Part shown: positions 3,095 through 8,442 of the stretch, in pieces
How positions within the stretch are numbered: position 1 is the first letter of the stretch
How the letters are laid out: every line of letters begins with the position of its first letter
Source: a virus
Virus record (IMG/VR): IMGVR_UViG_3300048925_000129
Reading direction: 5' to 3' (one strand)
Length of the DNA: 64,000 bases
Made by a program: the position numbers and the translations under genes
Notes under the pieces: generated by a model
What the model saw: the letters and a program-made list of their open reading frames with translations, nothing else
What the model was told of the DNA's origin: nothing
Database searches by the model: none

Positions 3095-3174
3095 AGCAGA
3101 GTTGTGGAATCGAACCACTAGTCTAGACTACCTTACTCTTCACGACTAAGACCCTGCCTTCGGGTGACTCTGCT
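3095..3174 (-). ncRNA. Atypical tRNA-like element (8-bp acceptor, long variable hairpin, non-canonical anticodon loop)
   Basis: AGCAGAGT/ACTCTGCT, D arm ACCC/GGGT, T-loop TTCGATT, anticodon region CGTGAAG lacks U33. Confidence 0.55.
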
Positions 3175-3185
3175 TATAAAAACTA

Positions 3186-3434
3186 CTACTCTATAAGAGC
3201 AGTAGTTGTATTGTTTTCTTTAATAATTTTTAATGACCCTTTAAACTGGAGGCTGCCTTTAGTATGACTACTGTCAGGGGTCTCCTTTGTTGTGAAGCCG
3301 ACTCTGGAATCTAGATGATCCACATAGTAAGTTTCACCTTTACACTTCACTACCCAGGCAGGAATGCTCTGGTCCTCGTTGTGTTTCTTATTGAAGTGGA
3401 ATACTATTCTGGAGCTATTACAAATTGTCTCCAT
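3186..3434 (-). CDS. Hypothetical protein
   Basis: 82-aa ORF, translationally coupled to the upstream gene, ends TAG TAG. Confidence 0.7.
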   Translation of the reverse strand: METICNSSRIVFHFNKKHNEDQSIPAWVVKCKGETYYVDHLDSRVGFTTKETPDSSHTKGSLQFKGSLKIIKENNTTTALIE

Positions 3435-3684
3435 ACTTCTCTACAAGTTTAGTCACATAAGATTCAGAAATTTCCTTTCTCTTTGTTGTTTGTCTCTCCT
3501 TTCCTTTCAGAACCGAGTAAGCCTGGAAGAGATGTCTAAGCTCATACCTGTTAGTTTCTCTTTCCGAAACTGGATTTGTAGATGTTCTTTCTCCTGTAAA
3601 GGATTGTTTAATCTGAGGCTTAAGAGTTTTCTGTGCCTCTGATAATGTTTTTATTGCTTGTCTGATTGTTTCAAATTTTTTCAT
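3418..3684 (-). CDS. Hypothetical basic protein
   Basis: 88-aa ORF with A-rich start, directly after the PTH2-like gene. Confidence 0.7.
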   Translation of the reverse strand: MKKFETIRQAIKTLSEAQKTLKPQIKQSFTGERTSTNPVSERETNRYELRHLFQAYSVLKGKERQTTKRKEISESYVTKLVEKYGDNL

Positions 3685-3691
3685 GATAATT

Positions 3692-4042
3692 TTAATTTAA
3701 TGTTAGATTAAGATTTTTAAATAAAGACTTGTGTTGAGATCTTGAGATTGCTTCGATGGCTACTGCCGTCATTTGGTTTCCTATGTCAGGTTCCAGGAAC
3801 TTATGATACTTGATTTCCAAGTCATCCAGTTTATGGAGTATCCTTTCAATTTTGGATTCCGAAGCTTCAAGACAACACAGGTAGTTACTACCCATCTGCC
3901 ACTGCTTAAATTCATCGTTAAACTTGACTGCAAAATCAGCCAATGCATGTGCACTTTGCACAACTTTGTAACCTGGAGTTAAATCATCTCTGGTGATGAT
4001 TGTCATAAACTCGTTACCTGTCTAAATACCTGTCTTTGTCAT
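3692..4042 (-). CDS. Peptidyl-tRNA hydrolase type 2-like protein; probable start at 4042 with in-frame TAG at 4022-4024 (alternative start 4006)
   Basis: IITRDDLTPGYKVVQSAHALADF...FLEPDIGNQMTAVAI resembles phage PTH2-like proteins; upstream in-frame MTKTGI*TGNEF. Confidence 0.75.
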
Positions 4043-4061
4043 AATATAAAACTTTTGGTTG

Positions 4062-4134
4062 TTCTTTCAACGGGATTCGAACCCGTGACACACAGTTTTA
4101 GAGACTGCTGTTCTAACCACTGAACTATGAAAGA
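4062..4134 (-). tRNA. Amber suppressor tRNA (anticodon CTA)
   Basis: TCTTTCA/TGAAAGA acceptor, GCAGT-CTCTAAA-ACTGT anticodon arm, ACGGG-TTCGAAT-CCCGT T arm. Confidence 0.9.
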
Positions 4135-4140
4135 ATATTG

Positions 4141-4203
4141 CTTCGTATAAGGACTCGAACCTCACCTGCTAACTGCCGTGCTCCCAATTACACCATCACG
4201 AAA
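4141..4203 (-). pseudogene. tRNA-like element with collapsed anticodon arm
   Basis: TTCGT/ACGAA acceptor, D arm TGGTGTAATTGGGAGCAC, T arm AGG-TTCGAGT-CCT, only ~15 nt between D and T arms. Confidence 0.55.
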
Positions 4204-4296
4204 AACTTATCTCTCCCACACGGCAATGCAGTTAAAATAAGATTGATATAAGTTAAGGAGGCTTGCCGACCAACCTTATTTGCCATCAATTTTTTG

Positions 4297-4373: not shown

Positions 4374-5194
4374 CAAGCTACAGGTCTTGTTAGTTAATAT
4401 TCCACACCGAGTGCCTCAACCAAGGCTTTGGGAATCGAACCCTCTTCGTCTTTTTTCCAAATAAAAATGTTTTAAACTTTGTATTTGCTGTGTGTAGCTT
4501 TATCAAATTACCGTTTGATGTTAAAATTCCAATTTTTAGCTTTGTTTAATTTGCTGTAGGTAATTTTGTCAGATTGCATACTAAACGTGTGTTTGATTAA
4601 AATTCAAGTGTTTGTTTAATTTGCTGTTAGCAATCTTTTCAGAATAGTATGTTTGAGGATTTGAACCCCTTGAACTGTTTATGAGACAATTGTTTTAACC
4701 AAATTTTTTAGATTTGCTGTAACTATTCTTATCAAGTTTCTATTGTTTTTGGACTATTGCTCTACCAACTGAGCTACTGAAATCCTAAGACTCCAGAAGG
4801 GACTCGAACCCTTGACCCACAGTGTTACATTCCTAAATTTGCTGTTAGAAACTTTATCAAAACTCATTTTTTGTTTTATACGTTGTACTAACCACTATAC
4901 TATCTCCCAAATTTTTCTAGATTAACTTTGTTGGGAGAGGAGGAGTCGAACCTCCGTCTACGGCTCTGAATGCATAACTTTGTATTTGCTGTATGAGTTT
5001 TTATATATTCAGGTTACTTGGGGACGATAAAAGGTCCCGTTAAGTTAAGATTTAAGTCATTCTAGGACTTTCCTATACAATTTTACTTCTCACATACAGG
5101 ACCCGAAGTGTAGAGATGTCTGTGCTTTTGCATTCTACAGTTTCCGTTATTTGAATCAATTATAGTTGTGTGTTGTATTTGCTGATAGTAACCT
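4374..5194 (-). ncRNA. Tandem array of 7 Y-RNA-like ncRNA units
   Basis: Units 4375-4500, 4505-4566, 4571-4636, 4641-4729, 4734-4854, 4859-5001, 5011-5194; each closed by a different 7-9 bp terminal stem with (A/U)CAGCAAAU just inside the 5' strand; adjacent to the TROVE-like gene. Confidence 0.8.
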
Positions 5195-5207
5195 TATAAT
5201 AACACTG

Positions 5208-7627: not shown

Positions 7628-8020
7628 TTAGTAGTTCACTACTCTTACTGGTTTACCAAGATTTTTCATGAGGTCTATCATATTTTTTGTTCCTCTACTC
7701 TTGCCATCCCAAAAAGCTATAAGTACATCTCCTACTTCGGACATCTCTTCATTCCTAATTGGACCAGCAGCATTCCCATACATTTTCCAGTCGGCTGGCA
7801 TAGGAATAACATTGTGATTACTCTCAGCAGCATAAAGCTCTCCAAGTCCATCTGCTCCAAAGACATTAATACCATCTGATGTGGTAAAAGTCTTGGTTCC
7901 CGTGGAGCATCTTCCTGAAACTATTTCGATGTCTCTATGATTCCTAAGGAAATTATCACATTTTGTTTTAACGAGACGATAATCATTCAGATCTCTGCCT
8001 CCTGCTATTATGACTTTCAT
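7628..8020 (-). CDS. SLOG-family protein (DUF2493/YspA-like)
   Basis: KVIIAGGRD, IVSG, GADGLGE, AAGPIRNEEM, AFWDGKSRGTKNMI. Confidence 0.85.
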   Translation of the reverse strand: MKVIIAGGRDLNDYRLVKTKCDNFLRNHRDIEIVSGRCSTGTKTFTTSDGINVFGADGLGELYAAESNHNVIPMPADWKMYGNAAGPIRNEEMSEVGDVLIAFWDGKSRGTKNMIDLMKNLGKPVRVVNY

Positions 8021-8442
8021 TAGGCTTCAGCAATTGCTTGCTTGATCTCATCAGCTTTATTAATACCTTTACACTCCTTGTTGATCATACCAAATAGTTT
8101 ACCTTCGTGGATGCCTGGATTATCTTCTTTAGTTTGTTTAACCAAAGACACTAATTCAGAATAGGTTAAGGCCTGAGGTAAGTACGACTCAAGAACTTTT
8201 AATTCTGATTCTTCCTTAACAGCAAGATCTATTCTTTTAGAAAGAGTGTAGGCATCAATAGATTGATTCCTTTTCTTAATTTCCCTAGAGATAAGTTTCG
8301 TAACTTCATCTTCAGTTAAATCTCTTCTTAAAGCTATTTTCTCGTTGTCTACTACACTTATTAAAAGTGACAGGGTTGTTTTTGCTACTATATCTTTTGC
8401 CTTTAAAGCTTTTACGTAGTCTTGTCTGATCTTTGATTCCAT
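8020..8442 (-). CDS. YqeY/GatB-domain tRNA-binding protein
   Basis: KALKAKD...EIKKRNQSIDAY..SKRIDLAVKEESELKVLESYLPQ. Confidence 0.85.
   Translation of the reverse strand: MESKIRQDYVKALKAKDIVAKTTLSLLISVVDNEKIALRRDLTEDEVTKLISREIKKRNQSIDAYTLSKRIDLAVKEESELKVLESYLPQALTYSELVSLVKQTKEDNPGIHEGKLFGMINKECKGINKADEIKQAIAEA

What the first reader, a model, noticed from the sequence alone, without database searches (positions are those of the whole stretch)
3692..4134. Amber suppressor tRNA directly upstream of a peptidyl-tRNA hydrolase-like gene with an in-frame TAG
Seen: tRNA(CUA) ends 20 nt before an ATG (4042, A at -3) reading MTKTGI-TAG-TGNEF-MTIITRDDL... in frame with the PTH2-like ORF. The internal ATG (4006) has a poorer context (T at -3). 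A 9-nt direct repeat (AGACAGGTA) brackets the TAG. Inference: full-length hydrolase is made only on amber readthrough, so expression is gated by the ratio of suppressor tRNA to RF1, a sensor of termination stress or a timing switch.
Basis: partly seen in the sequence, partly recalled or inferred. Interest (0 to 1): 0.82.

Follow-up and report, generated by a model that had tools for sequence, protein, structure and literature searches.

The report
Suppressor-tRNA-gated phage Pth2-like gene
A large phage that otherwise uses the normal genetic code puts a UAG stop at codon 7 of a small tRNA-hydrolase-like gene and carries its own UAG-reading tRNA 18 bases upstream; because about 60 distant phage lineages keep this pairing, and the stop codon changes together with the tRNA's anticodon, the enzyme is probably made only when that tRNA overrides the stop.

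Summary
On the minus strand a canonical tRNA(CUA) lies at 4134-4061. It is followed after 18 nt by ATG 4042, a TAG at codon 7 (4024-4022) and a 116-codon Pth2-fold gene that ends at 3692.

The strongest evidence is comparative:
- Of 100 dereplicated phage homologues, 58 keep an in-frame TAG 1-8 codons after an ATG, and 54 of those have no ATG between the TAG and the first strand.
- 71 of the 100 have a suppressor tRNA within about 3 kb, always on the same strand.
- Three rare variants carry early TAA or TGA instead. The two with a suppressor tRNA nearby have the matching UUA or UCA anticodon.

This phage is not recoded. In the window, in a complete 160-kb relative and in three further genomes, TAG still ends genes. 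The Pth2-like gene is the only convincing gated gene.

Its purpose (sensor or timer) is untested, and nothing here is experimental. The 9-nt repeat is real but not conserved.

No paper in the held library describes this pairing. Earlier follow-ups in this scan found the same module on other genomes.

The parts
4061..4134 (-). Amber suppressor tRNA, anticodon CUA. It has a canonical cloverleaf, a U1-A72 first pair, discriminator A73 and no encoded CCA.
   Evidence: ARAGORN; Rfam RF00005 at 71.2 bits; fold; acceptor-stem parse. ARAGORN's 'tRNA-Pyl' label only reflects the anticodon.
4043..4060 (-). 18-nt A/T-rich leader without a Shine-Dalgarno sequence, between the tRNA 3' end and the start codon.
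   Evidence: Sequence. The start-context matrix scores ATG 4042 at +2.8, the 96th percentile of all ATGs in the window. No terminator-like site lies between the tRNA and the gene.
4040..4042 (-). Probable true start codon of the Pth2-like gene.
   Evidence: Homologues nearly always have an ATG 1-4 codons before the gate.
4022..4024 (-). Gate codon: in-frame TAG at codon 7, followed by A.
   Evidence: Sequence. The TAG is kept at the aligned position in L001, L002 and L084. An early TAG is present in 58 of 100 dereplicated homologues, and the next base is A in 42, G in 12, C in 4 and T in 0. In the model this codon lies in a disordered N-terminal tail.
3692..4042 (-). Full-length Pth2-like gene: 116 codons including the TAG, ending in TAA.
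   Evidence: Pfam PF01981 E 1.5e-4; profile against PDB Pth2 chains E 2e-8; AlphaFold model pLDDT 91; the 13 best Foldseek matches are Pth2 chains, the ten best with TM 0.65-0.77.
4004..4006 (-). Internal ATG (Met13), a possible fallback start. It is not conserved and has a poor context.
   Evidence: The context scores -6.6, below all 45 training genes. Relatives have Leu, Ile or Val here. Starting here would remove E11 and F12 of strand beta1.
4015..4035 (-). Two copies of AGACAGGTA with a 12-nt period. This is lineage-specific and probably a small duplication.
   Evidence: Sequence. Absent from L001 and L002.
3418..3684 (-). 88-aa ORF that directly follows the Pth2-like gene. Function unknown.
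   Evidence: tblastn finds a relative in only 3 of 99 clusters.
3186..3434 (-). 82-aa ORF of the 'FHFNKKH...WVVKCKGETYYV' family. It is ungated here but often starts M-x-TAG-I in other phages.

Best explanation
**Proposed mechanism**

1. The tRNA(CUA) and the Pth2-like gene lie 18 nt apart on one strand and are probably transcribed together (inferred).
2. Ribosomes start at ATG 4042 and reach UAG at codon 7.
3. Without a charged suppressor tRNA, release factor 1 ends translation after a hexapeptide.
4. With the phage's own tRNA(CUA), the codon is read as an amino acid of unknown identity, and the 116-residue Pth2-fold protein is made.

**What this implies**

- The gate sits in a disordered N-terminal tail, so any inserted residue should be tolerated.
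- Output of the enzyme is thereby tied to the activity of the suppressor tRNA relative to RF1.
- The phage otherwise uses the standard code, so this gene is the tRNA's only evident client in the genome.

**What is shown and what is inferred**

- Shown by sequence comparison: the gate is conserved, it usually has no alternative start behind it, it is linked to a suppressor tRNA, and its codon matches that tRNA's anticodon.
- Inferred: co-transcription, actual read-through, and the purpose.

**Best guess for the purpose**

The enzyme recycles peptidyl-tRNA produced when ribosomes meet stop codons while suppressor and RF1 compete. Its dose is therefore set by the level of suppression.
For: **This window**
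- tRNA, leader, ATG, TAG and the Pth2-like ORF are as described.
- ATG 4042 has a gene-like start context and ATG 4006 does not.
- The residues between the TAG and Met13 (TGNEF) are conserved as protein in relatives, and E11-F12 belong to strand beta1.

**Family level**
- In 100 clusters at 70% identity, 58 have an early TAG gate. The ATG-to-TAG distance is 2 codons in 33. 54 of 58 have no ATG, and 46 of 58 no ATG, GTG or TTG, before beta1.
- The background rate of the same pattern in 729 other open frames of the same loci is 2.3%.
- A further 6-7 clusters (counts differ) carry only a mid-gene TAG, at other positions. These cannot be bypassed by re-initiation.
- The early TAG occurs on both sides of the deepest supported split of the family tree.

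**Linkage**
- 71 of 100 clusters have a suppressor tRNA within 2.5-3 kb.
- All 76 such tRNAs are on the gene's strand.
- The suppressor is the only tRNA in the locus in 29 of these 71 clusters.

**Covariation**
- L105 has a TAA gate with tRNA(UUA) upstream.
- L190 has a GGAGG-N5-ATG start, TGA at codon 5 and a tRNA(UCA) ending a few bases before that GGAGG.
- Both nest among TAG-gated relatives.
- No gated locus has a mismatched suppressor.

**Not genome-wide recoding**
- In the window, in the complete relative G001 and in G003, G004 and G006, TAG still ends 3-15 ORFs.
- TAG-split frames are not in excess.
- The Pth2-like gene is the only convincing gated ORF.

**Context after the stop**
- The base after the TAG is a purine in 54 of 58 and never T.
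- From my own knowledge (Bossi 1983; Pedersen and Curran 1991), this context favours amber suppression over RF1.
Against: - Nothing is experimental. Expression, processing, charging and the amino-acid identity of the tRNA are unknown.
- In this phage an internal ATG (4006) could give a nearly complete protein without read-through.
- About 31 of 100 clusters have no in-frame stop yet sit beside a tRNA(CUA) at the same rate. The linkage is therefore not explained by gating alone.
- Only 3 of 59 unselected phage tRNA(CUA) loci hold a Pth2-like gene. The tRNA must have other roles, which this reading does not explain.
- TAG still ends phage genes and presumably host genes, so a strong suppressor should be costly.
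- The codon after the gate is often ATT, ATA or ATC (29 of 58). This leaves some room for re-initiation at a weak start.
- In mycobacteriophage Bxz1 the arrangement ATG-TAG-GTG has a Shine-Dalgarno sequence placed for the GTG, so that case may be ungated.
Confidence: 0.78

Rival explanations
1. Ordinary stop-codon reassignment. The phage reads TAG as a sense codon (as in 'code 15' crAss-like and Lak phages), and the TAG in this gene is just one recoded codon with no special gating role.
For: - A tRNA(CUA) is present.
- TAG is a rare stop: 3 of 50 ORFs.
- Some related loci hold other genes with in-frame TAG.
Against: - No other long ORF in the 64-kb window is interrupted by TAG.
- The complete relative G001, together with G003, G004 and G006, uses TAG as a stop in 4-15 ORFs and has fewer TAG-split than TGA-split frames.
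- A neutral sense codon would drift to a synonymous codon, yet TAG is kept at the same place in homologues down to about 35% identity. It is replaced only by other stop codons paired with matching tRNAs.
Confidence: 0.06
2. Mini-ORF with re-initiation. ATG-x-TAG is a two-to-six-codon upstream ORF. After termination the ribosome restarts at a weak start codon just downstream (ATT, ATA, GTN, or ATG 4006 here), independently of the suppressor tRNA.
For: - The codon after the TAG is ATT, ATA or ATC in 29 of 58 clusters and GTA, GTT or GTC in 12 of 58.
- The window has ATG 4006 five codons after the TAG.
- Bxz1 has ATG-TAG-GTG with a Shine-Dalgarno sequence placed for the GTG.
Against: - 16 of 58 clusters have no near-cognate start after the gate: 15 read AAC, AAT, ACN, CTT or CAC there. 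The window, whose next codon is ACA, is among these 15; one further cluster has ATG.
- Mid-gene TAGs cannot be bypassed this way.
- This model does not explain the same-strand linkage to suppressor tRNAs, or the switch of the gate codon to TAA or TGA together with the tRNA anticodon.
Confidence: 0.08
3. Decayed gene start. The TAG is a nonsense mutation in a former N-terminal extension, and the working protein is the 104-aa product from ATG 4006. The neighbouring tRNA is there by chance, because the gene lies in a tRNA array.
For: - The 104-aa ORF covers the whole Pfam PTH2 model.
- The gene lies inside a 22-tRNA region.
- The pattern alone is not rarer than chance in the window.
Against: - The same TAG is kept in L001, where the internal Met is Leu (CTA) and no other start exists, and in 58 of 100 clusters.
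- ATG 4006 has a start context worse than any of 45 genes in the window.
- In 29 of 71 clusters the suppressor is the only tRNA near the gene.
Confidence: 0.04

Closest known systems
Stop-codon-recoded phages with phage-encoded suppressor tRNAs (TAG read as Gln, 'code 15': crAss-like, Lak and others; Borges et al., bioRxiv 10.1101/2021.08.26.457843; Peters et al. 2022, PMC9523058)
   Same: A phage-encoded tRNA(CUA) lets in-frame TAG codons be translated in a host that uses the standard code. In-frame stops have been proposed to regulate when genes are translated.
   Different: - In those phages many genes, mainly late and lysis genes, carry in-frame TAG, and TAG is given up as a stop.
- Here the genome keeps the standard code.
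- One small translation-related gene next to the tRNA carries the stop, at a conserved position right after the start codon.
- The preprint does not mention a hydrolase.
prfB (release factor 2) autoregulation through an early in-frame UGA
   Same: A gene for a factor of the termination and tRNA-recycling machinery holds an early in-frame stop codon. Its output therefore depends on how efficiently that stop is read as a stop.
   Different: - prfB needs a +1 frameshift, and its own product acts at the gate.
- Here the frame is continuous, passage needs a dedicated tRNA, and it is not known whether the product acts back on the gate.
Orphan suppressor tRNAs of standard-code jumbo phages (Xanthomonas phage XacN1, PMC5852040; Agrobacterium phage Atu_ph07, PMC6102473) and Pth2 genes of jumbo phages (Iyer et al. 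2021, PMC7824862)
   Same: These are large tRNA-rich phages that carry suppressor tRNAs and Pth2-type hydrolases.
   Different: - Those papers treat the two features separately.
- The XacN1 authors could not find targets for their CUA suppressors because they looked only at C-terminal read-through.
- Iyer et al. propose that Pth2 helps rescue ribosomes after tRNA cleavage and do not mention suppressors or in-frame stops.
Lambda bar minigenes and Pth (own knowledge, not tested here)
   Same: A two-codon ORF ending in a stop (ATG-AAA-TAG in most relatives) is the layout that makes ribosomes shed short peptidyl-tRNAs, which are the substrate of peptidyl-tRNA hydrolase.
   Different: The bar minigenes are stand-alone and toxic to Pth-deficient hosts. 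Here the mini-ORF is the head of the hydrolase gene itself and is continued by read-through.

Membership tests
Pth2 peptidyl-tRNA hydrolase (Pfam PF01981) | Sequence match to the family model | tested here: inconclusive
   The window protein scores 22.4 bits against a cut-off of 23 (E 1.5e-4, full-length match). Many homologues carry a precomputed PF01981 hit. A profile of the phage family hits PDB Pth2 chains at E 2e-8 and 1.3e-5.
Pth2 peptidyl-tRNA hydrolase (Pfam PF01981) | Pth2 alpha/beta fold | tested here: met
   The model has pLDDT 91 and pTM 0.84. The 13 best Foldseek matches in the PDB are Pth2 chains (3erj, 1q7s, 1wn2, 1xty, 2zv3, 1rlk); the ten best have TM 0.65-0.77.
Pth2 peptidyl-tRNA hydrolase (Pfam PF01981) | Active-site residues (the Asp of the 'DAG' motif and the Lys before 'AQ..HA', as I recall them for Sulfolobus Pth2) | tested here: inconclusive
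   The invariant D of 'EPDIGNQMT' aligns with the Asp of 'DAG', and Q..HA is conserved. The Lys position is K in the window but Q in many relatives.
Pth2 peptidyl-tRNA hydrolase (Pfam PF01981) | Hydrolysis of peptidyl-tRNA | not testable with these tools
   Needs an enzyme assay.
Amber suppressor tRNA | Canonical tRNA with anticodon CUA | tested here: met
   ARAGORN; Rfam tRNA at 71.2 bits; cloverleaf fold.
Amber suppressor tRNA | Aminoacylated and used at UAG | not testable with these tools
   Indirect support only: the gate codon and the anticodon co-vary. The amino-acid identity is unknown. The tRNA is closest to the phage's own tRNA-Trp at 72%, and suppressors in other loci have varied acceptor stems and discriminator bases.
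tRNA-Pyl (ARAGORN's label) | Atypical pyrrolysine tRNA shape (short D loop, 6-bp anticodon stem, 3-nt variable loop; from my own knowledge) | tested here: not met
   The fold shows an 8-nt D loop, a 5-bp anticodon stem, a 5-nt variable loop and a standard T loop.
Code-15 (TAG-recoded) phage | Many genes with in-frame TAG | tested here: not met
   Only the Pth2-like gene qualifies in the window, in the complete relative G001 and in G003, G004 and G006.
Code-15 (TAG-recoded) phage | TAG no longer used as a stop | tested here: not met
   TAG ends 3 of 50 ORFs in the window and 12 of 151 in G001. The read-through tails of the two TAG-ended genes with a G001 counterpart show no sign of being kept as protein: one differs in length and sequence, the other is a 10-codon tail in a 95%-identical region.
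prfB-type autoregulatory gate | The product acts on its own in-frame stop (feedback) | not testable with these tools
   No evidence either way.
prfB-type autoregulatory gate | Frameshift needed to pass the stop | tested here: not met
   The frame is continuous across the TAG.

The most novel reading that the evidence does not exclude
The tRNA and the enzyme form a closed control loop, a 'suppression-stat'. In this reading the Pth2-like protein acts on the suppressor tRNA itself, on its peptidyl or aminoacyl form. Because the enzyme can be made only by read-through, the pair would set the level of stop-codon read-through in the infected cell. This would explain why even ungated family members stay next to a suppressor tRNA, and why standard-code phages can afford to carry one.
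Probability: 0.2. Interest if true: 0.9.

Novelty: new variant of a known kind. Interest (0 to 1): 0.78.

Why it matters
Many large phages that use the standard genetic code carry suppressor tRNAs with no known target. The XacN1 authors stated this openly.

This module gives such a tRNA a concrete client that can be checked: one small gene, one codon and one tRNA, with natural UAG, UAA and UGA versions.

- If read-through is confirmed, it is a natural minimal translational switch built from a private codon-tRNA pair.
- It may also represent a stage on the route to full stop-codon reassignment, though nothing here tests that.
- It ties a peptidyl-tRNA hydrolase to termination control.
- It would improve phage annotation, because the gene is mis-started or missed in deposited genomes. 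In pT24 the annotated CDS starts inside the domain.
- Cultured phages with the layout exist (Tenacibaculum phage pT24, and possibly mycobacteriophage Bxz1), so the idea is directly testable.

Tried and rejected
- **Genome-wide recoding.** I tested this by comparing ORF coverage under alternative codes, stop-codon usage and frames split by a stop, in the window and in four related genomes. Rejected.
- **Other gated genes.** I scanned the window and the relatives. Only chance-level patterns appeared. G001 77829 'MK*FHPL' has a later ATG and overlaps the preceding gene's end.
- **Programmed C-terminal read-through.** Three genes in the window end in TAG. For the two with a counterpart in G001, the tails past the stop give no evidence of a conserved extension.
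- **The 9-nt repeat as a functional element.** It is not conserved.
- **Pth2-like as a general partner of phage amber suppressors.** Only 3 of 59 sampled tRNA(CUA) loci hold such a gene. The dependence runs one way.
- **Promoter and terminator scan.** Nothing above chance.
- **Close relatives among deposited phages.** None found by DNA search.
- **The 'Q' in database homologues.** Homologues in the protein database show Q at the gate position. The DNA-verified loci all have TAG there.
- **Literature.** Searches for a suppressor tRNA together with Pth2 in phages found no paper that describes the pairing.

Full report
**What is in the window**

The window is part of a large A/T-rich phage (34% G+C).
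- 22 tRNA genes lie on the minus strand between 2357 and 14223.
- A long plus-strand block of densely packed ORFs follows from about 19.6 kb.

On the minus strand the layout is:
- a canonical tRNA with anticodon CUA at 4134..4061;
- 18 nt of A/T-rich leader;
- ATG 4042;
- five sense codons;
- TAG at 4024-4022;
- five more sense codons;
- ATG 4006;
- an open frame down to TAA at 3692.

The two AGACAGGTA copies are real (4035-4027 and 4023-4015). The second starts inside the TAG. Close relatives lack the repeat, so I treat it as a small lineage-specific duplication.

**What the protein is**

- The 104-aa part matches Pfam PTH2 over its whole length, just under the cut-off (22.4 against 23 bits).
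- A profile of the phage family hits solved Pth2 structures at E 2e-8.
- An AlphaFold model of the 116-residue read-through product has pLDDT 91.
- The 13 best Foldseek matches in the PDB are archaeal or human Pth2 chains; the ten best have TM 0.65-0.77.
- Residues 1-8, which include the gate codon 7, are disordered.
- Strand beta1 runs from E11 to R18. A start at Met13 would therefore remove two residues of the fold.

**Which ATG is the start**

The phage uses leaders without a Shine-Dalgarno sequence. They are A/T-rich, G-poor, and have A at -3 in 29 of 45 genes.

I built a position matrix from those 45 genes:
- ATG 4042 scores +2.8. The training genes average 4.0 with SD 3.2, and this is the 96th percentile of all ATGs in the window.
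- ATG 4006 scores -6.6, below every training gene.

**Is the genome recoded? No.**

- Standard-code ORFs fill the window.
- Stops are TAA 45, TAG 3 and TGA 2.
- No other long frame is broken by TAG.
- The complete 160,268-bp relative with terminal repeats (G001, 88% identical Pth2-like protein) has 151 ORFs of 100 aa or more. They end in TAA (123), TGA (16) or TAG (12). The Pth2-like gene is its only convincing gene with an in-frame TAG.
- The same holds for G003 (180 kb, complete) and for the large fragments G004 and G006. Each has one tRNA(CUA), TAG ends 4-15 ORFs, and TAG-split frames (9-16) are fewer than TGA-split frames (40-82). Gate-like patterns are no more frequent for TAG than for TGA or TAA, apart from the Pth2-like gene.

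**Comparative evidence**

I collected about 200 loci from three profile or protein scans of IMG/VR and one scan of JGI metagenomes. Dereplicating at 70% protein identity gave 100 clusters.

*The gate*
- 58 clusters have an ATG followed after 1-8 codons by an in-frame TAG, then 3-16 codons before the arginine of the conserved 'R.DL' motif in the first strand. The distance is 2 codons in 33 clusters, the typical 'M-K-TAG-I'.
- 54 of 58 have no ATG, and 46 of 58 no ATG, GTG or TTG, between the gate and that strand.
- In L001, the closest complete relative, the window's Met13 is CTA (Leu). Read-through is then the only route to the protein.
- The base after the TAG is A in 42, G in 12, C in 4 and T in 0.
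- The same start pattern occurs in only 17 of 729 (2.3%) other open frames of these loci. Several of those 17 belong to other families that look gated as well.
- 6-7 further clusters (the counts differ) carry only a mid-gene TAG at other positions. Some members have two TAGs.
- On a family tree the early TAG occurs on both sides of the deepest supported split. With 75 alignment columns most forks are unresolved, so I do not count independent origins.

*Linkage to the tRNA*
- 71 of 100 clusters have a suppressor tRNA within the 2.5-3 kb fetched on each side.
- All 76 such tRNAs are on the gene's strand.
- In 29 of the 71 clusters the suppressor is the only tRNA in the locus.
- The suppressors are not one lineage. 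Their acceptor stems and discriminator bases vary. This fits a gate placed where the inserted residue does not matter.

*Covariation*
- L105 has tRNA(UUA) directly upstream and reads ATG GGT CAC TAA ATT.
- L190 has a tRNA(UCA) ending a few bases before a GGAGG-N5-ATG start, followed by TGA at codon 5.
- L153 has an early TGA but no suppressor within reach.
- All three nest among TAG-gated relatives.
- No gated locus has a mismatched suppressor.

This is the strongest argument that the stop is decoded by the neighbouring tRNA, and that selection keeps a stop there rather than a particular amino acid.

**What does not fit neatly**

- About 31 clusters have no in-frame stop, yet they sit beside a tRNA(CUA) as often as the gated ones do. 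In many of them the tRNA follows directly after the gene.
- Conversely, only 3 of 59 phage tRNA(CUA) loci found with an anticodon-loop and T-loop pattern hold a Pth2-like gene.
- So the hydrolase family depends on, or works with, suppressor tRNAs, but most suppressors do without it.
- This leaves room for a functional tie beyond gating. I give about a 20% chance that the enzyme acts on the suppressor tRNA and closes a feedback loop.
- The alternative is that it clears peptidyl-tRNA by-products of suppression, with its dose coupled to suppression.
- Neither can be tested here.

**Cultured carriers**

- Tenacibaculum phage pT24 has 'MK-TAG-ITKN...IITRSDL'. Its annotated CDS wrongly starts inside the domain. 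It has an annotated tRNA-Sup with anticodon CUA 2.6 kb upstream on the same strand.
- Mycobacteriophage Bxz1 gp154 is followed after 300 nt by a tRNA(CUA) annotated as 'tRNA-OTHER'. It reads ATG-TAG-GTG, but its Shine-Dalgarno sequence fits the GTG, so it may be ungated.

**Literature**

- Iyer et al. 2021 list Pth2 in jumbo phages as a ribosome-rescue factor, without mention of suppressors.
- The Borges et al. preprint on recoded phages mentions no hydrolase. It notes suppressor tRNAs in standard-code relatives only as a possible step towards recoding.
- The XacN1 paper could not find targets for its CUA suppressors.
- Five searches found no paper that describes the pairing.
- The library lacks most subscription journals, so absence there is not proof.

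**Earlier notes of this scan**

After reaching this reading I looked up the scan's notes by words. At least eight follow-ups on other genomes describe the same module, so the scan has found it before on other DNA. They agree with what I tested here. I did not build on them.
- the TAA/UUA and TGA/UCA covariation;
- the one-way association between the hydrolase and suppressor tRNAs;
- the disordered position of the gate;
- the start-context scoring;
- the four-genome check for recoding.

**Limits**

I could not check whether the 'Q' that database homologues show at the gate position is a TAG translated by the gene caller.
- Nothing here is experimental.

Noticed in passing
window 3186-3434 (-); L008:3665, L023:3524, L029:3334, L031:3336, L056:3333, L205: The 82-aa 'FHFNKKH...WVVKCKGETYYV' family lies directly after the Pth2-like gene in 12 of 99 clusters. 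In six of those it also starts M-x-TAG, so it may be a second gated client. The window's copy is ungated. No Pfam match.
   Followed up: partly
L006:1477-2058, L055:2391-2987, L062:2381-2971, L054:3346-3945, L098:3956: A family of about 195 aa ('QSV..HG.SV') next to Pth2-like genes also carries an early in-frame TAG. No Pfam match.
   Followed up: partly
L020:352-945, L017:846-1370, L033:1784-2359, L039:520-1095: A family of about 190 aa ('MEKKMKVEITEIFMAKADWNR...') near the module keeps a mid-gene in-frame TAG around codon 84-107.
   Followed up: no
L018:1709-2449: An N-terminal Pth2-like piece that includes its 'MT-TAG-I' head is fused to an HNH_4 plus NUMOD3 homing-endonuclease ORF. An intact gated copy lies beside it, so a mobile endonuclease appears to have landed in or next to the gene.
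   Followed up: no
window 8020-8442 (-); L213:330-773 (XacN1 ORF360): The window encodes a YqeY/GatB-like tRNA-binding domain protein (Pfam E 2.9e-26) inside the tRNA region. XacN1 has a gene annotated 'glutamyl-tRNA amidotransferase' 1.2 kb upstream of its Pth2-like fusion protein. This could bear on charging of the suppressor.
   Followed up: no
window 3095-3174 (-) and about 4140-4295 (-): A weak tRNA-Sec-like Rfam hit (26.9 bits, below threshold) lies between the 82-aa ORF and a tRNA-Met. A T-arm-like GGTTCGAGTCC lies in the 160-nt gap between tRNA-Glu and the suppressor tRNA. These are possibly further tRNA-like units of the kind other notes describe at 4374-5200.
   Followed up: no
L212:2480-3391 (Tenacibaculum phage pT24, LC168164.1): The deposited annotation starts the CDS at 194218, inside the Pth2-like domain, because the true head is 'ATG AAA TAG'. 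In pT24 the domain is also the N-terminal part of a protein of about 300 aa.
   Followed up: partly
L213:1961-2800 (XacN1 ORF364), L214:2015-2800 (Stenotrophomonas phage RAS14): In these jumbo phages the Pth2-like domain is the ungated C-terminal part of a protein of about 260-280 aa, and no suppressor tRNA lies within 2.5 kb.
   Followed up: no
suppressor tRNAs of L003, L013, L014, L016, L020, L053, L077 and others: Most suppressor tRNAs lack an encoded CCA (20 of 76 have one). Many are followed by the discriminator base plus 'CAAA', which could be a shared processing context.
   Followed up: no
L227, L241, L290: The only three Pth2-linked tRNA(CUA) genes in the unselected tRNA sample are long (85-92 nt), with a class-II-like long variable arm. 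The 72-78-nt suppressors of the main set are shorter.
   Followed up: no
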